Below, in pieces: positions 13,633 through 26,480 of a stretch of 29,468 bases of DNA. Position 1 is the first letter of the stretch. Each line of letters opens with the position of its first letter. The position numbers and the translations under genes were made by a program. Below the pieces are notes generated by a model. It worked only from the letters and a program-made list of their open reading frames with translations. It had not been told where the DNA came from and ran no database searches. Source of the stretch: Okeania sp. (GTDB taxonomy: Bacteria; Cyanobacteriota; Cyanobacteriia; Cyanobacteriales; Microcoleaceae); NCBI RefSeq assembly GCF_035285525.1, contig NZ_JAYKGW010000147.1, forward strand, positions 1 through 29,468, written 5' to 3'.

Positions 13633-16600
13633 GTGAAATCTTTTTCATTACAATCAGGAGATTATGTATCTCCTGGAATGTTAGTTGTTTTACCAGATGA
13701 ATGTTTTCCCAATATTATTATAGGCGATAAAAAATATTCGACTTGGCGTTATTCAAGAAAAGAAATTCCTCATAATCGTTATGTAGATAAAAGGTTTCCA
13801 GGAGTAGGATTTAATAATAGAGATGAAGTACATATTCTCTACAATACTGCTCTAAAATTTAAAGGAAAAAAAGCTCTAGAAATAGGTTGTTGGTTAGGAT
13901 GGTCAGCTTGTCATTTAGCATTAGCAGGAGTAGAGTTAGATGTCATAGATCCACTATTAGAAAATCAGGATTTTTATGAAAGCGTTAGTAGTTGTCTAGA
14001 AGCAGCTAATGTACTAGAAACAGTTAATTTAATACCAGGATATAGTCCGCAAAAAGTAGAAGAGTTAGCAGATACATTAGACTATAAATGGTCTTTAATA
14101 TTTATTGATGGTAACCATGAAGCTCCAGGACCTTTAAATGACGCGATCGCCTGTGAGAAACTGGCAACAGAGGATGCTTTAATTCTATTCCATGATTTGG
14201 CTTCCCCAGATGTATCACAAGGGTTGGATTATTTTAAGCAAAAAGGTTGGAATACAATGATTTACCAAACAGCTCAAATAATGGGAGTTGCTTGGCGAGG
14301 AAATGTGGAACCAATTAAACATCAACCAGACCCAAAAATACAATGGTCTCCTTTACCAGAGCATCTCAAAGACTATTTGGTTAGTGGTTTATCAACAGAG
14401 GAGTTGAAAAATAAAACTGTAGAAATTAAAGAAGCATTTGATAAATTTCCTCTTATTCCTTTTAAGTTGAATCTAGTTAATTTAATCTGTTTTCCAGATT
14501 GGGAACAAACAGAAGAAAACCTATTTTCTGACTTAGAAAAAATTGTTAGAGCTATCTTAAATTATTCAGATAGAAATGAAATATGTTTGTTAATAGGTAT
14601 TGATAAAATTGATGAAGAAGAAGCAGATAATATATTATCTTCTGTGGTAATGAAGATATTTATGGAAGAAGATGTAGATGTCACAAAAGAGCCTCAATTA
14701 TATTTATTAGCAGATTTAAGTTCCAGGCATTGGTCAGCTTTATTACCTCGGATTCAATTTAGAATAGCAATAGAAAATGAAAATGTAGGAATGGTAGAAA
14801 AAACAATAAATTTACCATCAATAACATTAGATTTATTGACAAGTATAAAGTTCAATAATTTCATTCCATCATTAAGTAAGTATAGTAATCAAATTATTCA
14901 GTTAGTAAATAGTAATCCTGGTCAATTATCTAGAGCTGAATATTCTTATATAACTGATGTAGTAGTTAATAGAAAATCTTGCAATTTCTTGGTTTTTGGA
15001 GTTGGTAAAGATAGTAAGTTTTGGATGGAAGTAAATCAAAATGGAGAAACAATATTTGTAGAAGATCATCCAGATTGGTTAAATCAGGTAAAGGCAAACT
15101 GTCCGAATATACAAGCTTATGCAGTTGAATATGGCACTAACAGAAAACAATGGCTAGATTTACTGGTGCAATATAGTCAGGGAATAGACAGTTTATTAAT
15201 GAGTTTACCAGAAAAAATTCTTCAGACAAAATGGGATGTGATTTTTGTGGATGCACCTGGTGGATACTCTGATGAAGTACCGGGAAGAATGAAAAGCATA
15301 TTTATGGCAGCAAAGTTAGCTTTTATTAATGGTAATACAGATGTGTTTGTCCATGATTGCGATCGCCTAGTAGAAACAATTTATAGTGGATATTTTCTAC
15401 ATGATAAAAATTTAATTACTAAAGTTGATAAATTGAAACATTATCAAATTATCAATCAAGACCAAAAACCCAAGATAAATTATCTGTTTCCTAGAGAAAA
15501 AAGTTATCAAACTGAAATAATTAAAGATAGTTTATTGTCGTCTCAAAATAATCTTCTCAAAACAGTTTTAACTTTGGAAGAGGTTCTTAAAGAAAACCCG
15601 GAAAATGTAACCACATTAGTAGAACTTGGTAAACTATCTCTTAAGTTAGAAGATTTACAGGTAGCAAAAAAATTATTTGCTAAAGCAATCAGTTTAGAGC
15701 GTCGCAACTGCATAGCAATTGAACTTTTAGGTAAAGTCTTGATAGATTTAAACGAGTATCAAGAAGCAACAAATATTCTAGAACATTTAGTAAAAATTCA
15801 ACCTCAAAATTTATCAACATTATCCTTACTAGAAAAATGTTATCGACAAATAGGTAAACAAAAAGAAGCAACTTCAGTTATTAATTATTACCGCGACCTA
15901 GAAACAGGTAAAAATGTTGCCAGCCTCCCCACAAATTTGTCAGAAAAATTTATATCCAAGACCAAACCTAAACGCATTTTAATCATCAATAATCTCTACC
16001 CTCCACAAGAATTAGGAGGATACGGTCGTCGTATTTGTGATTTTGCTAATGTACTTGATAAACGTGGTCATACTATTCATACGCTTGCTTCCGATGCACC
16101 TTACTTGGGAGAAATTAAATCCCCAGAAACAAACGTAACTCGTGAACTATTGTTGTGCGGTACTTATGAAAAACTGCCTCCAAGGCAGTTTACAGATGAG
16201 TCGGAAGTTCAATCGGTGATTGCCCATAATGATGCACTCATCAGAAAAACAATAGAAAACTATGCTCCAGATGTTTGCTTAGTGGGAAACATAGATTTAT
16301 TGAGTAACTCCATTTTCCTCCCTCTTTTAGAAAAATCTATTCCAGTCATTCATTTATTAGGGTTTGCTCAACCAGGGTATCCTGTTGACTGTACTCCCAA
16401 TAGTCCTCTTTACTTCGTTGGAGCAAATAGCGAATATGGTAGACAAGGTCTCATTAAACAGAAATATCCTCTTGATGAGATAGGTGTGGTTTACCCAGGA
16501 GCTTTTATTCAGCAGTTCCAAATGTGCTGCTTCCCTAATCTAGATAAACTCCGTATTGTTTTCGCTAGCTTAGTTTTACCCTACAAAGGTCCGCAAACAT

Positions 16601-17574
16601 TAATCGAAGCGTTAGCAATTTTGCATTATGCTGGAATAGACTTTGAATGTTCTATTGCAGGGGATGCACCAAATACAGAATTTTTAAACCATTTAAAAAA
16701 TGTTGCTGAAATTCGCGGTTTTGATAGTAAAGTGCATTTTCTGGGATATTTACCCCGTCAAAAATTAATTGAACTTTTTGCCAATAATAATGTCTTAGTT
16801 TTCCCTTCTGTTTGGGAAGAACCTTTTGGGCGATCGCAAGTTGAAGCAATGGCAGCAGGTTTAACTTTGATTACCAGTGGTACTGGTGGTTCTGCTGAAA
16901 TTGTAGAACCAGGGATAAGTGGGTTGACTTTTCCCCCAGGAAATGCTTTTGCTCTCGCTGAAGTGTTAATGGGTTTGACGAAAAATATTGATAAATGGCA
17001 GCAAATGTCGGTAGCGGGTCAAAAGCGTGCTGAACTGTTTGATATTAACTGTTCTATAGATTTTTTGGAAGAAAAGTTTGAGGAACTTTTGCGGATTAGA
17101 GATGGTGATCTCAAGTTTTTAGAGGAGAAGTATTTACCTTCTTTACAAGAAAAACTGCGGTTAAGGGAAATCAATTTCATGATTTTCCCAGACTGGTTGC
17201 AATCAGAAGAAACGGTGGGATTAGAATTACAAGAAGTTATCAAAAGTATGGTGACTCATCCAGATAAGAATAAGATAACTTTATTAATAGATAACAGTAA
17301 TATTTCTGCGGAAGATGCAGATTTAATTTTATCTAGCGTGGTGATGAATTTGTTAATGGAAGAAGAATTAGAGATAGATGAGGCAGTAGAAATTGTTTTA
17401 GTTGGGAAATTAAGTCAAATACAATGGTTAACTTTAATACCTCAGTTGCAAGGTCGGATTAAATTAGATAATGAGAATCAGGAGGCGATCGCTCAAGTTA
17501 AAGCAGAAAATATTCCTGTAATTGAACTTGATTGTTTGCCAGAGAAAATTCATAGTTTTCCAACCCAAGAATAG
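13633..17574 (+). CDS. 1313-aa mosaic polysaccharide-modifying enzyme: class I methyltransferase, tail module X, DUF579/GXMT-like methyltransferase, TPR repeats, GT4 glycosyltransferase, tail module X
   Basis: The aa 80-190 region has ALEIGCWLGWSACHLA...IFIDGNHE...LFHD. The aa 449-590 region has CNFLVFGVGKDSKFW...WDVIFVDAPGGYSDEVPGRMKSIFMAAKLA...TDVFVHDCDRLVE. TPR-like helices span aa ~645-755. The GT4 region has EPFGRSQVEAMAAGLTLITSGTGGSAEIVEPGISG. Module X is repeated at aa 279-390 and 1178-1290. The start is GTG. Confidence 0.85.
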   Translation: MKSFSLQSGDYVSPGMLVVLPDECFPNIIIGDKKYSTWRYSRKEIPHNRYVDKRFPGVGFNNRDEVHILYNTALKFKGKKALEIGCWLGWSACHLALAGVELDVIDPLLENQDFYESVSSCLEAANVLETVNLIPGYSPQKVEELADTLDYKWSLIFIDGNHEAPGPLNDAIACEKLATEDALILFHDLASPDVSQGLDYFKQKGWNTMIYQTAQIMGVAWRGNVEPIKHQPDPKIQWSPLPEHLKDYLVSGLSTEELKNKTVEIKEAFDKFPLIPFKLNLVNLICFPDWEQTEENLFSDLEKIVRAILNYSDRNEICLLIGIDKIDEEEADNILSSVVMKIFMEEDVDVTKEPQLYLLADLSSRHWSALLPRIQFRIAIENENVGMVEKTINLPSITLDLLTSIKFNNFIPSLSKYSNQIIQLVNSNPGQLSRAEYSYITDVVVNRKSCNFLVFGVGKDSKFWMEVNQNGETIFVEDHPDWLNQVKANCPNIQAYAVEYGTNRKQWLDLLVQYSQGIDSLLMSLPEKILQTKWDVIFVDAPGGYSDEVPGRMKSIFMAAKLAFINGNTDVFVHDCDRLVETIYSGYFLHDKNLITKVDKLKHYQIINQDQKPKINYLFPREKSYQTEIIKDSLLSSQNNLLKTVLTLEEVLKENPENVTTLVELGKLSLKLEDLQVAKKLFAKAISLERRNCIAIELLGKVLIDLNEYQEATNILEHLVKIQPQNLSTLSLLEKCYRQIGKQKEATSVINYYRDLETGKNVASLPTNLSEKFISKTKPKRILIINNLYPPQELGGYGRRICDFANVLDKRGHTIHTLASDAPYLGEIKSPETNVTRELLLCGTYEKLPPRQFTDESEVQSVIAHNDALIRKTIENYAPDVCLVGNIDLLSNSIFLPLLEKSIPVIHLLGFAQPGYPVDCTPNSPLYFVGANSEYGRQGLIKQKYPLDEIGVVYPGAFIQQFQMCCFPNLDKLRIVFASLVLPYKGPQTLIEALAILHYAGIDFECSIAGDAPNTEFLNHLKNVAEIRGFDSKVHFLGYLPRQKLIELFANNNVLVFPSVWEEPFGRSQVEAMAAGLTLITSGTGGSAEIVEPGISGLTFPPGNAFALAEVLMGLTKNIDKWQQMSVAGQKRAELFDINCSIDFLEEKFEELLRIRDGDLKFLEEKYLPSLQEKLRLREINFMIFPDWLQSEETVGLELQEVIKSMVTHPDKNKITLLIDNSNISAEDADLILSSVVMNLLMEEELEIDEAVEIVLVGKLSQIQWLTLIPQLQGRIKLDNENQEAIAQVKAENIPVIELDCLPEKIHSFPTQE

Positions 17575-18260: not shown

Positions 18261-18328
18261 TTAAATCAAGTTATCCTATTCTGCTATGTTATGGTAAAAT
18301 AATATTATTTGTTTAATTAATTTATAGA

Positions 18329-20332
18329 ATGCAACAACTATCTCTACCCCTAAATATACCAAATACTCAACTAAATACAACTTCGCAATTTCGAGAAATG
18401 CTAACAGCTTTAAATATAACAGATAGTTCTGGTTGGCCTGATAAATTTGGGATATCAATTCATAATTGGTTCACAAAAAATTCCTATTCTCCTATTAAAA
18501 CTATGAGTCTATTTGCTGGTGGTGGTGGACTAGATATTGGCTTCCATGATTGCGGTTTTAAAATAGTGAAAATGGTCGAATTAGAAGCAAAATATACTAA
18601 AACTTTAGAAGTAAATTCTCAACCAGCAAAATACTTAGAAAACAGTGAACCTCTCTGCATAAATATTCAAGAATATTTTCCCTCTCCAGAATTAGAAATA
18701 GACTTTATTATTGGGGGTCCGCCATGTCAAACATTTTCAGCAGCAGGTAGAAGAGCATCTGGTGTTTCTGGAACAAACGATAGTAGAGGAACGTTATTTT
18801 CGGAATATGTTCGCATCTTAAAACAACTACAACCAAAAGGATTTTTGTTTGAAAATGTTTATGGAATTATTGGTGCGGAAAATGGCAAAGCATGGCAAAA
18901 GATTAAAATAGCATTTCAAGAAGCAGGTTATACAATTTACCATCGCATACTTGATGCAGCAGATTATGGTGTACCACAACATCGAGAGCGACTATTTATT
19001 GTGGGATTAAAAAAAGGAAATTATTTATTTCCTGCTCCAACTCATGGACCTGATTCTGTTAATCAAGAACCTTTTTATACAGCATTAGCAGCAATAAAAG
19101 ATATTAATGTTTCAGAAAAAGAATTAGGAATTAAAGGTAAATATGGGCATCTTTTAAAAGATATACCACCTGGATTAAATTATAGTTTTTACACGGAGAA
19201 AATGGGTCATCCTGAGCCGATTTTTAGTTGGCGTTCTAAGTTTTCTGATTTCCTTTATAAAGCAGATCCAGAAATGCCAGTTAGAACTATTAAAGCACAA
19301 GGAGGACAATATACAGGACCTTTCAGTTGGGAAAATCGACGGTTTTCAATAGCAGAATTAAAACGACTTCAAACATTTCCTGATATTTATGAAATTATTG
19401 GTAATCGTTCGGTTTGTATAGAACAAATAGGTAATTCTGTACCACCACAATTAGGAAGGATTTTAGCATTGAGTATTTTGGAGCAAGTTATGGGAGTTAA
19501 GTTACCATTTTCTCTGCAATATTTATCTCCAACTCAACAATTAGGATTTAGACAACGAAAGCGTCAGTTGACAAAAAGATATGCAGAAAAAGCTAGGCAA
19601 GCGATCGCTAAATTATCTACTCAATCTTTAGATAAATTAAAAGCTATATCTCTACCAACAAATAGTTATGTAAATCAAAAGAATATAGAAAGGTTTTTAT
19701 CTACAGATTTTGGCTGGTATAATTTGCAAAAAAATAATTCTGTAAAGATTTACATTAGTTATGATTTAGGTAAAAGTTGTTGGTTAATAGATGCAGGTAT
19801 TAGTCAGTTGGAAGAGAAAAAAAGTTTATATTCTATAGATATAATACCTGTCACAAATTCTCAAGATTGGGTTTTAAATACAGAGAGAGTAAAATTAATT
19901 GCTCGTGATGATAATTTGCAAGTATTTACAGGATTATGGAAAGCTTTTGAAGAAAGGTTGAGAGAAATAACTGGTAAAGCAGATTTAGTTCAATTATCTG
20001 GATATTATCAGTATCAACCAAAGATTAAAATGACAATGAATTTTTCTATGGAGTTAAAGACTAATTCTATTTGGAAAATAGTTGAATTTATTGTTAGAGG
20101 TGTAGGAGTAAAAACTCAATTATCTGGTCAAGAATTAGCATTTTTATGGGGAGTAAATATTGAGGATATTTTTGATTATCTCCAATGTTTACGAAAAATA
20201 GGTTATGAAGTTAGGAATCACAATACAAATCCTCAAATTACTCCAGGAGAATATTTAATTCCCTACTGTTTTCCAACTTTAACACCTAAAAGTGTGCAGT
20301 TAAGAAAGAATTTAGGAGCATCTAATGAATGA
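18329..20332 (+). CDS. DNA (cytosine-5)-methyltransferase with a ~278-aa C-terminal extension of unknown function
   Basis: The motifs occur in canonical order: LFAGGGGLDIGF (I), GGPPCQTFSAAG (IV, catalytic Cys133 at 18725-18727), FLFENV (VI), QHRERLFIVG (VIII), RRFSIAELKRLQTFPD (IX) and GNSVPP (X). Residues 390-667 lie beyond the methyltransferase core. Confidence 0.93.
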   Translation: MQQLSLPLNIPNTQLNTTSQFREMLTALNITDSSGWPDKFGISIHNWFTKNSYSPIKTMSLFAGGGGLDIGFHDCGFKIVKMVELEAKYTKTLEVNSQPAKYLENSEPLCINIQEYFPSPELEIDFIIGGPPCQTFSAAGRRASGVSGTNDSRGTLFSEYVRILKQLQPKGFLFENVYGIIGAENGKAWQKIKIAFQEAGYTIYHRILDAADYGVPQHRERLFIVGLKKGNYLFPAPTHGPDSVNQEPFYTALAAIKDINVSEKELGIKGKYGHLLKDIPPGLNYSFYTEKMGHPEPIFSWRSKFSDFLYKADPEMPVRTIKAQGGQYTGPFSWENRRFSIAELKRLQTFPDIYEIIGNRSVCIEQIGNSVPPQLGRILALSILEQVMGVKLPFSLQYLSPTQQLGFRQRKRQLTKRYAEKARQAIAKLSTQSLDKLKAISLPTNSYVNQKNIERFLSTDFGWYNLQKNNSVKIYISYDLGKSCWLIDAGISQLEEKKSLYSIDIIPVTNSQDWVLNTERVKLIARDDNLQVFTGLWKAFEERLREITGKADLVQLSGYYQYQPKIKMTMNFSMELKTNSIWKIVEFIVRGVGVKTQLSGQELAFLWGVNIEDIFDYLQCLRKIGYEVRNHNTNPQITPGEYLIPYCFPTLTPKSVQLRKNLGASNE

Positions 20333-21647
20333 TTTATATTTAAGAGTCTTTAAAGATCAAAGTGAACTGGTACAGAGCAATGGCAAAAAACAGATTTTTT
20401 TAGAAGGTAAAATGAGCCATGAAGCTAGAATCAGATATCATAAAATCACCAATGAACTAGCAAATAATTACTTAGAAAAACAAATTCTTGCTTGTCGCGA
20501 TCGCAATGTTATGAGTGATGGATTTCAACTTGAACAAAGTCAAATAAATACTTTGAATAAACTTGTTAATTCAGTTACCAGTGAGGTTGGTAGAGCATTA
20601 GTTGGTTTAACAATTTTACAGTTGTGTATAAAAAGTATTGAACCGAAACAAAGTATTAGACTACATAAAAGCAGCACAAATAGAAATGCTTTTTCATGGC
20701 AAGAAGGAATACCAATGCGTTCTTTAGACAAACAATATATTACTCCTATTTTGCGCAAATACGAATTATTAAAACTAAATGCAGATGGATTTATGATGAC
20801 GCGCAGTTTAGCAGAAAATTATCCTTATTCACCTGTTTATAAAGCTAATATTAGAGGAGCGCGTCTGGAGTGGCTTAGTCTCGTAGAATTAATTGAAGAA
20901 AATCAAATAGACTCAAAAAATTCTCTACATTATTTAATATCGCAATTACTCAATAATGCTAGAGAATTTCAAAAATTAGCTACAGAAACTCTTGATTATG
21001 TTCAAAATTTTTTAGATTCAAGTGAAGTTATAAATCAGAAAATTATTACTAATTTGATATGGAGACATATAGAAGAATCTGATTATGCTGCACGGATTAT
21101 GGAAATTGCTATACATAGTCTGATGCAGGCAATGGAAGAAAATCAACTATTTCCAGATTGTGAACTTAAGCCTTTATCGCAAATGCGGTCTGCTAATAAG
21201 AAACATGGCAATATTGGCGATATTGAAATATTAGAAAAGGGTAATATTATTGAAGCTTGGGATGCAAAATATGGTAAGGCTTATTTACGAGATGAAATTG
21301 AAGAGTTAGCTGATAAATTATTGAGTCATTCTCATGTTAAATTAGCTGGTTTTGTGACAAGTGTTAAACTCCAGCGACAATCAGAGTTAATATCTCGTTG
21401 TGAAGAACTAGAAGAAGAATTTGGAATTTCTCTGGAAATATTGACATTTATAGATTGGGTTCAAAACAAATTTAATCAAGCAATAGAAAAGGGTTTTTTG
21501 ACAGAAGAAAAGTTAGCAGGTGCATGGTTAATTGCTTATGCTGAATCAATAGCACAAAAACGTCGCAATATTGCACCTATTGATGAACCTTGTCAACAAT
21601 GGTTAGTTACTTTAAAAGATATTTTAGAAGATGTCATATCCATTTAG
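20325..21647 (+). CDS. Putative type II restriction endonuclease (C-terminal PD-(D/E)xK-like core), partner of the methyltransferase
   Basis: The ATG overlaps the methyltransferase stop by 8 nt (ATGAATGA). The candidate catalytic layout is GD299IEI-x9-IIE310AWD313AK315 (21219-21269). I did not recognise a named REase family. Confidence 0.6.
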   Translation: MNDLYLRVFKDQSELVQSNGKKQIFLEGKMSHEARIRYHKITNELANNYLEKQILACRDRNVMSDGFQLEQSQINTLNKLVNSVTSEVGRALVGLTILQLCIKSIEPKQSIRLHKSSTNRNAFSWQEGIPMRSLDKQYITPILRKYELLKLNADGFMMTRSLAENYPYSPVYKANIRGARLEWLSLVELIEENQIDSKNSLHYLISQLLNNAREFQKLATETLDYVQNFLDSSEVINQKIITNLIWRHIEESDYAARIMEIAIHSLMQAMEENQLFPDCELKPLSQMRSANKKHGNIGDIEILEKGNIIEAWDAKYGKAYLRDEIEELADKLLSHSHVKLAGFVTSVKLQRQSELISRCEELEEEFGISLEILTFIDWVQNKFNQAIEKGFLTEEKLAGAWLIAYAESIAQKRRNIAPIDEPCQQWLVTLKDILEDVISI

Positions 21648-21801
21648 TTTTAGGTATAGCTGTTGCCAACTTTTATCCTTGTTATTTTATTATTTAGAAC
21701 GAGGCAAAAACCGGGTTTATTAACTAAAATTGGTGCTTTAATAGACAACAATTAAGGAATAAACTCGGTTTCTTTGTTGGTTTGCTTAAGCTCCGATTTT
21801 T

Positions 21802-22070
21802 CTAATTTCCCCCAGAGGAATTATCTGGAATTAACTCCTCAAACTCTGCCATAGAATTAACCCGAATTGTTTCTAATAGGAGTTTTTTTAGGGAAGCTAA
21901 ATCCTCAATATTATTCAGAGTTTCTACCAGAATTTCTGGCACTGATAAAAATCGTACTTGCAGTAGGTCGAGAATATTTTGTCGGCAAATTTTTACCATA
22001 CCACGTTCTTCCATTGTACTTAATAATTCCACTTTCTGTTCCTCCTCATATTGATTGATTTTAGTTTCAA
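21802..22070 (-). pseudogene. 5'-truncated DUF4351 (Rpn C-terminal) copy
   Basis: It reads ETKINQYEEEQKVELLSTMEERGMVKICRQNILDLLQVRFLSVPEILVETLNNIEDLASLKKLLLETIRVNSMAEFEELIPDNSSGGN. Homology stops abruptly at about 22070, where the duplicated REase tail begins. Confidence 0.7.
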
Positions 22071-22348: not shown

Positions 22349-23299
22349 CTAATTTTCCTCAGAGGAATTGTCTGAAATTAATTCCTCAAATTCTGCCATA
22401 GAATTAACCCGAATTGTTTCTATATGTAACTGTTTTAAACGAGCTAAATCTTCAATATTATTCAGAGTTTTTACCAGAGTTTCTGGCACTGATAAAAATC
22501 GTATTTGCAGTAAATCGAGAATATTTTGTCGGAAAGTTTTTTTAGATCCTTTCTCAATACCACGTTCTTCCATTATACTTAATAGTTCCACTTTCTGTTC
22601 CTCCTCATATTCATTGATTTTAGTTTCAAGATTCTGTTGTAATTCTGGAGGCAATGCCATCATTTTATCTATGAATTTAAACAAGTTAATAATCTCCAAC
22701 TTGCTTAATCCCTTTTCATATAAACTTCTGACTAATTGCCATTTCCATTTTTCTCGTTCTGTTAAATCCCTGGTGGTACTCTTAGTTCTTAAGTGTGCCA
22801 TTACCATTGTAGCAAAAACATTGTTACTTGCTGATAATTCCTCCCACTTATAATCTAAGAGTTTCACGATGTCAAAATTTAATTTCATGCGACTTTTTTT
22901 GAACTTATATTTATAAGAACTGGGTCGCCAAGATGGGTTCTCATCTCCAAGTATAGCTAAACTAGCTACTTTTTGATCGTATAGGTCGAATGCTCGATAA
23001 TTATAGATAAACATTCGTTTGGGAAATTCTTTGTCGTATTGACTTTGAACTTCTATATGAATTAACAGCCATTTTTTTCGGTTGTTTAATAACCAAACTT
23101 GAAATAATTTGTCAGCATAACGTTTTTTTGTTTTGGCTGAGGCTGTAATTTCTTCTAGTTCTTTGTCTAGAGAAATTGGTGTTTTTTCCCAGTTAATAGA
23201 CTTGTAAATTTCTGGATAGAAAAAGCTGAGGAAAGATGGCAAATATTCTCCAATTGCTGCTTTCCATGGTTCGTCATAGTTGGCGGTTATTTCTGTCAT
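22349..23299 (-). CDS. Rpn-family (YhgA-like, PD-(D/E)xK 'putative transposase') nuclease with a DUF4351 C-terminal domain
   Basis: 316 aa. The N-terminus has YDEPWK...YLPSFLSFFYPE, then YADKLFQVWL...WLLIHIEVQSQ (a D...E-x-Q nuclease core) and ...RMFIYNYR. The C-terminal domain is identical in type to the free-standing copies. The internal Met213-Met214 lie at 22658-22663. Confidence 0.8.
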   Translation of the reverse strand: MTEITANYDEPWKAAIGEYLPSFLSFFYPEIYKSINWEKTPISLDKELEEITASAKTKKRYADKLFQVWLLNNRKKWLLIHIEVQSQYDKEFPKRMFIYNYRAFDLYDQKVASLAILGDENPSWRPSSYKYKFKKSRMKLNFDIVKLLDYKWEELSASNNVFATMVMAHLRTKSTTRDLTEREKWKWQLVRSLYEKGLSKLEIINLFKFIDKMMALPPELQQNLETKINEYEEEQKVELLSIMEERGIEKGSKKTFRQNILDLLQIRFLSVPETLVKTLNNIEDLARLKQLHIETIRVNSMAEFEELISDNSSEEN

Positions 23300-23675: not shown

Positions 23676-26372
23676 TTAATCAGAAGATAAATCGCGCAAT
23701 TTACTCTGCCGTAATTTTGCCAACAAAGAGGTAGGATCAATTCCTGCATCTTGATAAGCTTGAATAGCACGTTTACGCCAATCAAGATTCTCTTCTCCTG
23801 GAAAGCTACGCCTTAATTCTCTAACTGTAGATATTGCATTAGTTGCCCACTTTTTGAAGTCTTCTAAATTCCAGTAACATACGTCTTCTGTATAAGGTTT
23901 AGCATCAGGTTCTATTTTTGCACAAGGTGTAATGAGGGCTGGAATAATATCTGCGGATTGAGATAAAGAGGTATCTTTATTTTCTCTAATCCATTTTGGG
24001 TGCGATGCTGCCTCTCTAACTTTGACAGACCCGAGGGTAGTTTCTGTATTGCCTTCTGAGTGGTCTTCAAATACTATGCACAAGTCATCTCCAGCAATCC
24101 ACCAAGGGTCTGGAGCGCTATGGGTTGTGGAGTTACCTGAGTCATAACCCAATAGTTTTCCTAATCTTTCATGGCCGTCCTCAAATTTTTTACTTAGCTT
24201 GTTACGCCCCTCATCTGTCAGATTTTGCCGATCTTTTATTGGGGGATTTAGATTATCAAAAATTGCTCTTACCTCTTTATCAAATTTTGTACTATTCCTT
24301 GTACCTAATTTGATTAATCGCTGCTCTAAACCTTCTATCACTTTGCTAAGTCTTGGATCGACTTGAGGAACTTCATCTTCTAATGACAATCGAGCAAGTC
24401 GTGAAAACCATGTAACCTCTGGAGCAACTTTAGCAGCACGTTTAAAATAATCTCTTGCCTTACTTTCCATAGAGGTAATTCCATCTTTGGCTCCCATCCA
24501 TGCAGCACTTCCTGCAAGATAGTACCAAAAAGCGATGTAACCTCTAAGCTCTGGATCATTTGCTTGGTTAAGCTGACTAAAAACACTTTCGCACTTAGCT
24601 AGAGCTTCTTCAAAATTGCGATGCCAAATACAATACTGATATTTTACTTCATCAGAAACAGTTTCTTTCAGCTTTTCTATTGCAGGTAGTTTAGCTTGCT
24701 CTAATCTTCCTCTATGATAAATTATGTCTTCCTCAGCTTGATTCCATTTTTCTCCATGTTCTAAAAAAATATTAAGGTTTTCAAGAAAATTCCTCTCTTT
24801 TTCTTCTTCTTTAGATTGCTCAATTGTATCTTCAATTTCCGCAAAATATGTTTCTTCTTTTTCTGCTTTAGATTGCTCAATTCCATATTCAATTTCCGCT
24901 TGTAATTCAGGATGTAAAAACTTTTGTTTGTCAGGATTAAGTAAAAGATTTCTTAACTCATCTCCTAATATAACTACTGCTGCATAATCAGTATCAGACC
25001 TTGTACAACGCCCCACTGCTTGAACCATTCTAGTTATAATCCGGTCATTGAAAATTACAGCAGCACACAAACGGGTAACTAAAAATTTTTCTTGAATATT
25101 TGTAGCTCGCTGCAAATCTTTAACTATTAGTAACCGACATTCATCTTTTGGTAGATCGATTCCATCATATCTATTTGCTAGGACAGCAACAGCTCCATCT
25201 TTGGAAATAAAATCTTGTTTAGAAGTTTCAATTTCTTTACTTTCAAATATTTGATATTTTGTCTGCTCTTCAATCTTCTCTTTTACTTTCTTTGCTTGCT
25301 CATCATCTGGAACTAAGAAAAGAGAGCGAGGAGTTGAACGGAGCATTTTCATTACTAAATTTAAGGATGATTCTTGATTAAGCGAGCTTTCAGGAAAAAA
25401 GAAAAAACGACGACCAATACCTTGCTTATCCCAACCTTCTGGTACTTTTAAACGAAAAATATTTTCTATTCCAAAAAGACGCTCTATTTCTCCCCCTTCT
25501 CCTAAAGTTGCAGACATATATAAACGTTGTTTTGCTTGTGAGAATGGTGGATGGGTTTGAGTAGGAGGTATTACAGGTCTAATTAATATAGCGTTAAAAC
25601 TCAAATATATATGGCAGGCAAAAAGATGATTTCTTAGTACAGACCAAGGATACTTAATTTCATCAGAAGTATCTTGATCTAGTAGTTCTGTTAATTCTGT
25701 TCTTAATTCATATAAATCTGGTGTAGGAATTGTTTCAACCCAACTTAAATCTGATTTATCTGGATATTTAAAAAACCTTAAATAGTCTGATTCTGATATA
25801 ACCTTCTTTAAAACAGATATAATATTATTGAAAAGTGAGTCATGTTCTTTTCGTTTTATTAAGACAGACCAAAATTTAGCGACATAGTTTTCGGCAGCAT
25901 GAGCATCATCAAGTATGATTATATTTGCATCCTGAAAAAACGAGTTTGTGTTAAATAAACCACTATATGTAGTAACAGCTAAAGTTTCTCCACGCAGATA
26001 TTCTGTCTTAATTTTAGGATCATATTCCTTTTGTTTTCCAGTAAAAGCATTTGCTTTGATTCCATACTCATTAATAGACTTTTCAACTACTTGATTAACT
26101 AATTGACGAGTAGGGCAAAGATATACTACCTTTTCTTTAAACTTTCGTCGTCGCCATTCCCCAATTAATAATCCAACTAGAGTTTTACCACTGCCAGTAG
26201 GAAGTTGCAAAGCTACATCAGATTTGTTCAAAGTTTCTTCTTTTTGATATTCTCGTAATATGTCTGCTTGATGAGAAAGAAGACCTTCTATTTTTCGATT
26301 TCTTAAGTCGCGGAAAAGTGCTTCTGGAGTTTCAGGTATTATGGTTGAATGCCTAGTCTTTTTTAGTGCCAT
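23676..26372 (-). CDS. SF2 helicase (DinG/Rad3-like C-lobe flavour) fused to a ~420-aa C-terminal region with a helical-repeat segment and a restriction-endonuclease-like module
   Basis: The helicase motifs are PTGSGKT (aa 58-64), LDDAH (154-158), MSAT (286-289), NRYDGIDLPKDECRLLIV (400-417) and QAVGRCTR (451-458). The C-terminal module is FEDGHERLGKLLGY...APDPWW...LCIVFEDHSE (aa 730-773). Confidence 0.85.
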   Translation of the reverse strand: MALKKTRHSTIIPETPEALFRDLRNRKIEGLLSHQADILREYQKEETLNKSDVALQLPTGSGKTLVGLLIGEWRRRKFKEKVVYLCPTRQLVNQVVEKSINEYGIKANAFTGKQKEYDPKIKTEYLRGETLAVTTYSGLFNTNSFFQDANIIILDDAHAAENYVAKFWSVLIKRKEHDSLFNNIISVLKKVISESDYLRFFKYPDKSDLSWVETIPTPDLYELRTELTELLDQDTSDEIKYPWSVLRNHLFACHIYLSFNAILIRPVIPPTQTHPPFSQAKQRLYMSATLGEGGEIERLFGIENIFRLKVPEGWDKQGIGRRFFFFPESSLNQESSLNLVMKMLRSTPRSLFLVPDDEQAKKVKEKIEEQTKYQIFESKEIETSKQDFISKDGAVAVLANRYDGIDLPKDECRLLIVKDLQRATNIQEKFLVTRLCAAVIFNDRIITRMVQAVGRCTRSDTDYAAVVILGDELRNLLLNPDKQKFLHPELQAEIEYGIEQSKAEKEETYFAEIEDTIEQSKEEEKERNFLENLNIFLEHGEKWNQAEEDIIYHRGRLEQAKLPAIEKLKETVSDEVKYQYCIWHRNFEEALAKCESVFSQLNQANDPELRGYIAFWYYLAGSAAWMGAKDGITSMESKARDYFKRAAKVAPEVTWFSRLARLSLEDEVPQVDPRLSKVIEGLEQRLIKLGTRNSTKFDKEVRAIFDNLNPPIKDRQNLTDEGRNKLSKKFEDGHERLGKLLGYDSGNSTTHSAPDPWWIAGDDLCIVFEDHSEGNTETTLGSVKVREAASHPKWIRENKDTSLSQSADIIPALITPCAKIEPDAKPYTEDVCYWNLEDFKKWATNAISTVRELRRSFPGEENLDWRKRAIQAYQDAGIDPTSLLAKLRQSKLRDLSSD

Positions 26373-26423
26373 ATTTATCTGAATTTGTGGAAAAATACTA
26401 CTTCATTATACTGCTTTAATTTC

Positions 26424-26455
26424 AAAATTGAGGGCGGGAGTTAACCCCCCCTCAA
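26424..26455 (-). terminator. Candidate rho-independent terminator downstream of acnB
   Basis: The minus strand reads ttgaggggggg-ttaact-cccgccctcaa followed by tttt. This is an 11-bp GC-rich stem with one mismatch, ~140 nt after the acnB stop. Confidence 0.45.
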
Positions 26456-26480
26456 TTCACTTAATTTACTGAATAATTAA

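What the first reader, a model, noticed from the sequence alone, without database searches (positions are those of the whole stretch)
23676..26372. 898-aa helicase with a non-helicase C-terminal half: candidate single-gene helicase-nuclease defence
The first ~475 aa carry an ordered, intact SF2 motif set. These are PTGSGKT, LDDAH, MSAT, NRYDGIDLP..CRLLIV (reminiscent of the DinG/Rad3-type C-lobe, though no Fe-S cysteine cluster is visible) and QAVGRCTR. The remaining ~420 aa (23679-24947) are not helicase. They comprise an acidic/Lys-rich linker, a helical TPR/Sel1-like stretch (aa ~575-660, e.g. RGYIAFWYYLAGSAAWMGAKDG...ARDYFKRAAKVAP) and a distal module. That module, FEDGHERLGKLLGY-x13-PD755PWW-x8-LCIVFE769DH771SE, is laid out like a PD-(D/E)xK restriction-endonuclease core, but has His where the Lys is expected. 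The gene sits in an island with an R-M pair, an Rpn nuclease and toxin-antitoxin debris, wedged directly against the housekeeping acnB terminator. Single-protein helicase-nuclease defences exist in concept (Hna- and Nhi-type), but I cannot place this architecture in a named family from sequence alone. It is my top candidate for an undescribed system.
Basis: partly seen in the sequence, partly recalled or inferred. Interest (0 to 1): 0.75.

Follow-up and report, generated by a model that had tools for sequence, protein, structure and literature searches.

The report
Hna-type helicase-nuclease phage-defence gene

Summary
The ORF (23676-26372, minus strand, 898 aa) and its motifs are real. It is not an undescribed system. 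PADLOC models PDC-S28 match it full-length (E=3e-116). S. meliloti Hna, the validated helicase-nuclease abortive-infection protein, hits the same models (963 bits), and DefenseFinder calls PDC-S28 proteins "Hna".

A family profile aligns with the solved Hna structure end to end (E=6e-60). An AlphaFold model (pLDDT 89) has Hna as its top PDB match (E=3e-39), and so does the C-terminal half alone (E=2e-8).

The window protein belongs to a third, divergent branch (22-26% identity to Hna). Its nuclease core keeps Hna's Mg ligands (P754/D755/E769) but has His771 where Hna has the essential Lys729. In 131 diverse relatives, Lys sits at either 771 (strand beta3) or 784 (helix alpha2), and almost never at both or neither (44/44 against 1/86). 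This is a PD-EXX-K "lysine migration", a documented PD-(D/E)xK variant.

The gene stands alone and is patchily distributed. It occupies a variable slot after acnB that holds a GmrSD-type restriction gene in the closest relatives.

Verdict: a new member of a known family, of modest interest.

The parts
23676..26372 (-). Complete gene for an 898-aa Hna-family (PADLOC PDC-S28) helicase-nuclease
   Evidence: ORF. PADLOC PDLC04987 E=2.7e-116 over aa 10-894. Profile against solved Hna E=6.4e-60. Foldseek top hit Hna 9yhn E=3.4e-39.
25848..26282 (-). HEL1 core (aa 31-175) of the SF2 ATPase. It includes the Q-motif Gln35, Walker A GSGKT (26181-26204) and DDAH (25899-25910).
   Evidence: Pfam DEAD/ResIII aa 31-162. 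K63, D155, D156 and H158 are invariant in 118 window-branch and 120 Hna-clade sequences. Q35 is invariant in the 79-sequence alignment and aligns with Hna Q39.
24957..25328 (-). HEL2 (aa 349-472), DinG/XPD-type C-lobe, with motif VI QAVGRCTR (24999-25022)
   Evidence: Pfam Helicase_C_2. Q451, G454, R455 and R458 are invariant. After Hna, the next Foldseek hits are DinG, XPD and CasDinG.
24216..24911 (-). All-helical middle region (aa 488-719) joining HEL2 to the nuclease, homologous to the same region of Hna
   Evidence: AF2 secondary structure. A single profile alignment runs through it to Hna 492-680. Resemblance to TPR proteins is weak and non-significant.
24795..24899 (-). Lineage-specific in-frame tandem duplication (aa 492-507 and 511-526), the 'acidic/Lys-rich linker'
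   Evidence: 41/48 nt and 11/16 aa are identical between the copies. More than half of the family has a gap here. pLDDT is below 50 at aa 505-509.
23808..24215 (-). [quoted passage not shown] Residues: E731 (24180-24182), P754/D755 (D755 at 24108-24110), E769-D770-H771 (24060-24068), K784..H791 on helix alpha2 (24000-24023).
   Evidence: AF2 strand and helix order. It aligns to the Hna NUC domain, with D713/E727/K729 matching D755/E769/H771. Lys is mutually exclusive between positions 771 and 784.
23679..23807 (-). C-terminal helices (aa 856-898) with conserved W865/R866, specific to the window branch
   Evidence: Conservation. The Hna clade has gaps at these columns.
26425..26458 (-). G+C-rich hairpin followed by UUUU in the acnB-helicase spacer, the probable acnB terminator
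   Evidence: Fold dG -22.4 kcal/mol, z -4.3, 0/200 shuffles as good. The strict terminator scan missed it.
26405..26410 (-). TATAAT hexamer 33 nt upstream of the ATG, a possible own -10 element (unverified)
   Evidence: Read directly from the sequence. The consensus scan reported no full sigma-70 match.

Best explanation
The gene encodes a stand-alone Hna-type anti-phage protein. It has an N-terminal DinG/XPD-like SF2 ATPase without an Fe-S cluster, a helical connector, and a C-terminal PD-(D/E)xK nuclease.

By homology with S. meliloti Hna, the most likely mechanism is as follows. The ATP-bound protein is held in a nuclease-off state. A phage-derived cue (a phage SSB in the case of Hna), and/or exposed 3' single-stranded DNA, releases the nuclease. 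The nuclease then degrades DNA with Mg2+ and aborts the infection.

The nuclease site of the window's branch is rewired. The metal ligands (E731, P754/D755, E769) are kept. The general-base/phosphate-stabilising Lys has moved from strand beta3 (position 771, now His) to the start of helix alpha2 (Lys784), giving a PD-EXX-K site that is probably still active.

Shown here: family membership, fold, conservation, Lys relocation, stand-alone and variable genomic occurrence.
Inferred: anti-phage role, exonuclease polarity, ATP autoinhibition, and the trigger.
For: Family membership:
- PADLOC PDC-S28 matches full length.
- Hna itself scores 963 bits on PDC-S28.
- The same B. cereus protein is 'Hna' in DefenseFinder and 'PDC-S28' in PADLOC.
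- A profile of 79 relatives aligns with solved Hna 14-784 in one stretch, E=6.4e-60.
- The AF2 model (pLDDT 89.4) has Hna as top Foldseek hit (E=3.4e-39, TM 0.58/0.63).
- For the C-terminal half alone, Hna is the only significant hit (E=2.2e-8).

Active sites:
- ATPase motifs are invariant.
- Hna's experimentally defined Mg ligands P712/D713/E727 (PMC13381803) correspond to P754/D755/E769. D755 is invariant, and P754 (114/118) and E769 (117/118) nearly so.
- Lys relocation in 131 representatives: K771 in 86, of which only 1 also has K784; non-K771 in 44, of which all 44 have K784. Mirror pairs K/H (12) and H/K (24) occur.
- There are at least 5-7 coordinated switches on a tree built without the nuclease-core columns.
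- Precedent: Pa4535, motif PD-EXX-K (PMC3424549).

Accessory and defence context:
- The gene sits directly after acnB in only 4 of about 54 informative cyanobacterial species loci, plus two further Okeania assemblies found via the protein look-up.
- In Dapis M172 and Microcoleaceae MO_207 the slot holds a GmrSD_N protein instead, next to the same R-M pair as in the window.
- Distant members sit in unrelated neighbourhoods beside recombinases, IS110, Rpn, Mrr and a caspase-helicase fusion.
- The taxonomic spread is patchy.
Against: - Identity to Hna is only 22-26%, and pairwise the nuclease domains are not significantly similar (E=0.12).
- The residue equivalent to Hna K729, whose K729A mutation abolishes nuclease activity, is His.
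- The Hna dimerisation-loop residues T30/D31/P34 align with K27/I28/L31, so ATP-driven autoinhibitory dimerisation and SSB sensing may not carry over.
- Hna R36 (ATP coordination) is not conserved either.
- No member of this branch is known to me to have been tested.
- I could not read model coordinates to confirm that K784 points into the active site.
- No promoter was detected by the consensus scan.
Confidence: 0.72

Rival explanations
1. The C-terminal domain is a degenerate pseudo-nuclease. With the canonical Lys lost, the protein acts only through its ATPase/translocase, or as a sensor or scaffold, and not by cutting DNA.
For: His replaces the Lys whose mutation kills Hna nuclease. Position 771 tolerates H, Y, N and F.
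Against: E731 and D755 are invariant and E769 nearly so (117/118) in the window's nearest relatives, and all three remain invariant or nearly so across the wider branch. Every sequence lacking K771 carries K784 (44/44; all 112 are K and none D), so a Lys is always retained at the site. Such strict compensation is not expected in a decaying active site. PD-EXX-K sites are a recognised variant.
Confidence: 0.1
2. It is a housekeeping or accessory DNA-repair enzyme of the ExoDinG type (a helicase-like 3'-5' exonuclease) and not an immune protein.
For: After Hna, the nearest folds are DinG and XPD. The Hna paper itself likens Hna to ExoDinG. The gene sits after acnB in four divergent Microcoleaceae-type lineages at 59-63% identity, which could reflect old vertical inheritance.
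Against: It is missing from that position in about 50 of 54 informative cyanobacterial loci, including the closest genomes. A GmrSD-type restriction gene replaces it in the same slot. Relatives at about 47% identity occur in Firmicutes, Planctomycetes and Chloroflexi beside mobile elements. The family is validated (Hna) and catalogued (PDC-S28) as defence.
Confidence: 0.1
3. It is one subunit of a multi-gene system together with the neighbouring R-M pair or the Rpn-like gene, for example a Res-like motor for the methyltransferase.
For: Pfam ResIII matches the N-terminus. A C5 methyltransferase with an overlapping unknown ORF lies 2 kb away, and an Rpn-like gene lies directly downstream.
Against: The R-M pair is on the opposite strand and occurs without the helicase in L004 and L006. 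The helicase occurs without the R-M pair or Rpn in Okeania and in all distant loci. The ResIII match is the generic SF2 N-lobe. Hna works as a single gene.
Confidence: 0.03

Closest known systems
Hna (helicase-nuclease abortive infection) of Sinorhizobium meliloti pSymA; PDB 10UJ/9YHN/9YKJ; equals PADLOC candidate system PDC-S28
   Same: Single polypeptide of about 850-900 aa. Same domain order: HEL1, HEL2, helical connector, PD-(D/E)xK NUC. Homologous over the full length by profile (E=6e-60) and by fold (E=3e-39). Same ATPase motifs. No Fe-S cluster. Same Mg ligands (PD...E). Stand-alone gene prone to horizontal transfer. Hits the same PADLOC models.
   Different: Only 22-26% identity. It forms a third branch that scores about 335-390 bits on both PDC-S28 models, against 963 bits for Hna. 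Nuclease core is E-D-H plus K784/R786/H791, against E-C-K plus E743/E745/S750. Dimer-loop residues T30/D31/P34 and ATP-contact R36 are not conserved. Extra C-terminal helices with W865/R866. Motif VI has Cys where Hna has Ser. No experimental data for this branch.
Pa4535-type PD-EXX-K active-site variant of the PD-(D/E)xK superfamily (PDB 1Y0K; Steczkiewicz et al. 2012)
   Same: [quoted passage not shown] The window protein shows this same pattern: D755, E769, and K784 on helix 782-797.
   Different: An unrelated family. The resemblance concerns only the active-site layout. Here the relocation is inferred from covariation and not seen in a structure.
DinG / XPD / CasDinG (SF2 Rad3-like helicases), including ExoDinG
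   Same: Closest helicase fold after Hna (Foldseek E about 1e-12). Helicase_C_2 C-lobe. PADLOC typeIV_DinG E=2e-15 over aa 261-471.
   Different: No 4-Cys Fe-S domain (a single Cys between Walker A and B). TM only about 0.35. These proteins lack the C-terminal PD-(D/E)xK nuclease. NCBIfam DinG/Rad3/YoaA scores are far below their cut-offs.
Other helicase+nuclease defences: Hachiman (HamAB), Nhi, Cas3
   Same: The general logic of an SF helicase/ATPase coupled to a DNA nuclease. Several are triggered by phage SSB or by DNA damage.
   Different: Only short N-lobe matches to HamB and Cas3 models (E 1e-5 to 1e-7, 50-80 residues). No HamA partner gene. No Nhi model hit. Different helicase class and domain order.

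Membership tests
Hna / PADLOC PDC-S28 | Full-length match to the family's profile models | tested here: met
   PDLC04987 E=2.7e-116 (aa 10-894 against 14-843 of 846) and PDLC04986 E=1e-106. Hna itself scores 3.4e-290 on PDLC04986.
Hna / PADLOC PDC-S28 | Homology to experimentally characterised S. meliloti Hna across HEL1, HEL2, connector and NUC | tested here: met
   Profile A1 against 10uj_A: E=6.4e-60, one stretch, profile 11-794 against Hna 14-784. Foldseek 9yhn E=3.4e-39 over 928 columns. C-terminal half alone E=2.2e-8.
Hna / PADLOC PDC-S28 | Intact SF2 ATP-binding motifs (Q-motif Gln, Walker A Lys, DDxH, motif VI Arg) | tested here: met
   Q35, K63, D155/D156/H158, Q451/R455/R458 are present and invariant in the family alignments; the Walker A, DDxH and motif VI residues are also invariant in the Hna clade, and Q35 aligns with Hna Q39.
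Hna / PADLOC PDC-S28 | DinG/XPD-like fold lacking the Fe-S cluster | tested here: met
   DinG, XPD and CasDinG are the next-best folds. Only C86 lies between Walker A and DDAH.
Hna / PADLOC PDC-S28 | C-terminal PD-(D/E)xK nuclease with Mg ligands P-D...E (Hna P712/D713/E727) | tested here: met
   P754/D755/E769 align with them. D755 is invariant in both clades, E769 nearly invariant (117/118) in the window branch, and P754 is nearly invariant in the window branch. [quoted passage not shown]
Hna / PADLOC PDC-S28 | Catalytic Lys in the E-x-K triad on strand beta3 (Hna K729; K729A is nuclease-dead) | tested here: not met
   The window has His771. The Hna clade has K in 120/120 sequences. A Lys is present instead at 784 on helix alpha2, mutually exclusive with K771 across the branch.
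Hna / PADLOC PDC-S28 | HEL1 dimerisation loop (Hna T30/D31/P34) for ATP-dependent autoinhibition and SSB competition | tested here: not met
   The aligned residues are K27/I28/L31 (compared). The loop is conserved within the window branch but with different residues. Whether it still dimerises cannot be tested here.
Hna / PADLOC PDC-S28 | Acts as a single gene with no conserved partner | tested here: met
   The neighbours differ in every locus examined. Function itself was not tested.
Hna / PADLOC PDC-S28 | Abortive-infection phage resistance; activation by phage SSB; 3'-5' ssDNA exonuclease activity | not testable with these tools
   These are experimental properties reported for S. meliloti Hna only.
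DinG/XPD/Rad3 repair helicases | 4-Cys Fe-S cluster domain and family-level (equivalog) score | tested here: not met
   Cys positions. NCBIfam DinG scores 13 bits against a 598 cut-off, rad3 13.6 against 247, and YoaA 10.6 against 680.
Hachiman (HamB helicase with HamA) | Full-length HamB match and an adjacent HamA (DUF1837) gene | tested here: not met
   HamB models match only aa 35-113 (E about 1e-5). There is no such neighbour gene.
Type III / type I restriction motor subunit (Res/HsdR) | Obligate co-occurrence with a cognate Mod/HsdM-HsdS partner | tested here: not met
   The neighbouring MTase is a type II C5 enzyme on the other strand. The helicase and the R-M pair each occur without the other.

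The most novel reading that the evidence does not exclude
The window's lineage may be a functionally distinct Hna-like system and not a plain orthologue. Its rewired nuclease centre (His on beta3, Lys/Arg/His on alpha2) and its different HEL1 loop would give it a different regulation or trigger (not SSB competition at a dimer interface), or a different cleavage chemistry or substrate, from S. meliloti Hna. The repeated K/H to H/K swaps would then mark adaptive tuning of the nuclease, for instance against phage inhibitors.
Probability: 0.2. Interest if true: 0.45.

Novelty: new member of a known kind. Interest (0 to 1): 0.27.

Why it matters
It removes a false lead.

Three points of modest value remain:
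1. It documents a large, divergent, untested branch of the Hna superfamily. The superfamily has 1,286 clusters at 50% identity with E<=1e-30, and the window's branch fills at least the top 150. The branch is common in cyanobacteria.
2. Within this branch the catalytic Lys has repeatedly swapped between strand beta3 and helix alpha2. This is a clean natural case of active-site residue migration. Anyone annotating Hna-like proteins by the ExK motif needs to know it, because they would otherwise score these proteins as inactive.
3. The slot downstream of acnB in Okeania/Dapis-type cyanobacteria is a defence hotspot where Hna-like and GmrSD-like genes alternate.

Tried and rejected
1. 'RecB/Cas4-like QxxxY motif' reading of Q787-x3-H791: rejected. 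Foldseek of the C-terminal half gave no RecB or Cas4 hits, only weak HindIII, Hjc and FAN1 hits.
2. TPR/Sel1 identity of aa 575-660: no Pfam TPR hit, and only non-significant Foldseek hits to TPR proteins. I describe it simply as a helical connector homologous to Hna's.
3. Tandem Repeats Finder did not report the linker duplication. Direct comparison of the two copies did show it.
4. The consensus promoter/terminator scan found nothing in the acnB-helicase spacer. Folding showed a strong hairpin, but the promoter remains unverified.
5. The original Hna paper (Sather et al. 2023, PMID 36893733) is not held. I therefore could not check whether its phylogeny already includes this branch, or whether any member of it was tested.
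Ten members were scanned instead.
7. Link to the adjacent R-M or Rpn genes: rejected on independent occurrence.
Full report
**Observation**

The window contains a single uninterrupted ORF at 23676-26372 on the minus strand, encoding 898 aa. The two spacers in the distal module are 10 and 5 residues, not 13 and 8. Pfam recognises only the helicase half (DEAD 46-162, ResIII, Helicase_C_2 349-472) and nothing in aa 476-898. The gene is real: a search of 5.8 billion proteins found more than 3,600 homologues. The top 120 are nearly all full length (about 830-976 aa, with a few partial entries), and the best is 92% identical, from Okeania spp..

**Identity**

PADLOC-DB gives a full-length match to the candidate single-gene system PDC-S28: PDLC04987 at E=2.7e-116 over aa 10-894, and PDLC04986 at E=1e-106. 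A sequence search of the PDB found an 845-aa 'helicase ATP-binding domain-containing protein' (10UJ/9YHN/9YKJ, E=7.7e-34). The depositors' paper identifies it as S. meliloti Hna, the helicase-nuclease abortive-infection protein (PMC13381803).

I rebuilt Hna residues 14-784 from the printed alignment (numbering verified at K729) and scanned it against PADLOC. It scores 963 bits (E=3.4e-290) on PDLC04986 and E=3e-115 on PDLC04987. PDC-S28 is therefore PADLOC's pre-publication name for the Hna family. Independent confirmation comes from a supplementary table of PMC11811056, which lists one B. cereus protein as 'Hna' under DefenseFinder and 'PDC-S28' under PADLOC.

**Depth of homology**

Pairwise BLASTP between the window protein and Hna (P0121) shows 26% identity over aa 49-507 (E=2e-36). 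The nuclease region gives only a non-significant hit (E=0.12). A profile of 79 relatives, however, aligns with Hna in one continuous stretch: profile 11-794 of 861 against Hna 14-784 of 845, E=6.4e-60.

An AlphaFold2 model of the full protein is confident (mean pLDDT 89.4, pTM 0.74). Its best PDB match is the Hna monomer (E=3.4e-39, TM 0.58/0.63, 928 columns), followed at a distance by DinG, XPD and CasDinG (E about 1e-12, TM about 0.35). A separate model of aa 476-898 (pLDDT 85.7) has Hna as its only significant match (E=2.2e-8, 422 columns). TPR proteins, HindIII, Hjc and FAN1 appear only as weak hits.

The non-helicase C-terminal half is thus the Hna connector plus the NUC domain. [quoted passage not shown] Only one Cys lies between Walker A and DDAH, so, as in Hna, there is no Fe-S cluster.

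**A divergent branch**

The window protein and ten diverse relatives all score about 335-390 bits on both PDC-S28 models, against 963 bits for Hna on its own model. The window's lineage is therefore a third branch from which neither PADLOC model was built. A profile search of 1.84 billion representatives found 1,286 clusters at 50% identity with E<=1e-30. The window's branch alone fills at least the top 150.

**The 'His instead of Lys' puzzle**

Hna's Mg ligands P712/D713/E727, and K729 (whose K729A mutation abolishes nuclease activity), align with window P754/D755/E769 and His771. Among the 118 nearest relatives, E731 and D755 are invariant and E769 nearly so (117/118). Position 771 is H in 99, Y in 7, K in 6, N in 3 and F in 2. 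K784, R786, Q787 and H791 on the following helix are nearly invariant. In 120 Hna-clade sequences the pattern is E-C-K with E743/E745/Q746/S750.

Within the near relatives, all three sequences with Asp at 784 have Lys at 771, and none of the 112 sequences without K771 does. The pattern is almost absolute across 131 diverse full-length representatives:

| State at 771 | Sequences | State at 784 |
|---|---|---|
| Lys | 86 | Lys in only 1; otherwise T, D, H, N, A, Y, E, S, V or Q |
| Not Lys (H 24, Y 12, N 7, F 1) | 44 | Lys in all 44 |
| Ile (one degenerate sequence) | 1 | Glu |

The mirror pairs K771/H784 (12 sequences) and H771/K784 (24 sequences) both occur. On a neighbour-joining tree built without the nuclease-core columns and rooted on Hna, parsimony needs at least 5 changes for K771 and 7 for K784. 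The sequences with the relocated Lys are not monophyletic.

The simplest reading is that residues 771 (strand beta3) and 784 (start of helix alpha2) occupy one functional site, and that the catalytic Lys has moved between them several times. This 'PD-EXX-K' arrangement, with Lys migrating to the second core helix, is documented for Pa4535 (PDB 1Y0K) in the PD-(D/E)xK superfamily survey (PMC3424549). I could not access model coordinates, so the spatial proximity of K784 to D755/E769 is inferred and not measured.

**Genomic context**

The window's acnB is 95-96% identical to those of Dapis spp. and Okeania spp.. The organism is therefore a Microcoleaceae-type filamentous cyanobacterium, not a Nostocales member.

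Among 80 species-representative acnB loci, the helicase lies directly downstream of acnB in four: Okeania hirsuta (91%), and two Microcoleaceae-type MAGs and Capilliphycus salinus (59-63%). Two further Okeania assemblies found through the protein look-up show the same arrangement. The helicase is missing from that position in about 50 loci with at least 3 kb of downstream sequence. These include the closest genomes: Dapis M172, two MAGs, and Okeania KiyG1 and SIO3I5.

In Dapis M172 and Microcoleaceae MO_207 the slot holds a 583-586-aa GmrSD_N (DUF262) protein instead (Pfam E about 1e-28). That gene is followed by a small HTH_17 gene and by the same R-M pair that the window carries at 18285-21879 (94-95% nt identity). 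Homology between the window and Okeania ends 32 bp past the helicase stop codon.

Distant branch members sit in unrelated neighbourhoods with no conserved partner. Nearby genes include serine recombinases, IS110, an Rpn (PDDEXK_2 + HTH_Rpn_C), Mrr and a caspase-helicase fusion. Relatives at about 47% identity occur in Firmicutes, Planctomycetes and Chloroflexi. This is the signature of a mobile, stand-alone accessory gene in a defence hotspot, and it argues against a core repair helicase. The recurrence after acnB in several lineages suggests either an old acquisition with repeated loss and replacement, or a favoured integration site.

**Local signals**

The 220-bp spacer after acnB contains a G+C-rich hairpin at 26425-26458 (dG -22.4 kcal/mol, z -4.3) followed by UUUU, a plausible acnB terminator. 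A TATAAT hexamer lies 33 nt before the ATG. The strict consensus scans reported neither element. The gene's G+C content (35.3%) matches the window average of 34.6%.

**Mechanism**

What is shown here is family membership, fold, intact ATPase motifs, retained metal ligands, a relocated Lys, and stand-alone variable occurrence. The rest is inferred from S. meliloti Hna:
- Mg/Mn-dependent 3'-5' ssDNA exonuclease activity.
- An ATP-bound autoinhibited state.
- Release by a phage factor such as an SSB.
- Abortive infection through DNA degradation.

The Hna dimer-loop residues (T30/D31/P34) and ATP-contact R36 are not conserved in the window branch (K27/I28/L31 and S33). Q39 is conserved as Q35. The regulatory details are therefore the least secure part of the inference.

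**Comparison and verdict**

The protein meets the architectural, profile, fold, ATPase-motif, metal-ligand and single-gene criteria for the Hna/PDC-S28 family. It does not carry the canonical beta3 Lys or the Hna dimer-loop residues. I file it as a divergent member of a known family with a known type of active-site variation.

Interest is modest. The useful by-products are the lysine-migration pattern in a large untested Hna branch and the acnB-adjacent defence slot.

Noticed in passing
L004:10702-12453 (Dapis sp. BLCC M172) and L006:3126-4886 (Microcoleaceae MO_207.B10): In the closest genomes that lack the helicase, the same slot directly after acnB holds a 583-586-aa GmrSD_N (DUF262) type IV restriction-like gene. 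It is followed by a 189-196-aa HTH_17 gene, which also flanks the helicase in Okeania (L001:13282-13851). Alternative defence genes therefore alternate at one hotspot.
   Followed up: partly
window 18329-20332 (+) and 20325-21647 (+): A 667-aa type II C5 cytosine methyltransferase, with the MTase domain in aa 56-383 and about 280 aa of unassigned C-terminal extension. It overlaps by 8 bp a 440-aa ORF with no Pfam, NCBIfam or PADLOC match, a candidate unclassified restriction endonuclease. The pair is 94-95% identical in nucleotide sequence in L004 and L006.
   Followed up: partly
window 22349-23299 (-) and 21802-22032 (-): The 316-aa gene downstream of the helicase is only weakly Rpn-like (TIGR01784 E=1e-4, below cut-off; no Pfam hit). 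The 76-aa ORF at 21802-22032 closely repeats its C-terminal about 75 residues, so it looks like a truncated paralogous remnant.
   Followed up: partly
window 24795-24899 (-): A 57-nt in-frame tandem duplication (AEIEYGIEQSKAEKEE / AEIEDTIEQSKEEEKE) at the HEL2-connector junction. The Okeania orthologue shares it, most of the family lacks it, and the model has low confidence there.
   Followed up: yes
window protein residues C86, C253, C412, C456 (helicase half): Four Cys are invariant across the window branch. The first three are also conserved in the Hna clade, while C456 in motif VI is Ser in Hna. Whether they cluster in 3D or bind a metal could not be checked without model coordinates.
   Followed up: no
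window 13633-17574 (+): A 1313-aa multidomain protein combining Methyltransf_24, an IRX15/GXM-like domain, TPR repeats and a group-1 glycosyltransferase. This is an unusual fusion, probably for polysaccharide modification.
   Followed up: no
L085:6874-9909 (Ferroacidibacillus organovorans): Directly upstream of the Hna-like gene lies a 1011-aa fusion of a caspase-like Peptidase_C14 domain and a DEAD/Helicase_C helicase, with Mrr and Rpn genes nearby. It is a possible defence gene in its own right.
   Followed up: no
P0056 (Dapis sp. BLCC M229): A 539-aa protein, 81% identical to the window protein over 62% of its length, is annotated as 'helicase C-terminal domain-containing'. It is probably a truncated or decaying copy of the same gene in a close relative.
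   Followed up: no
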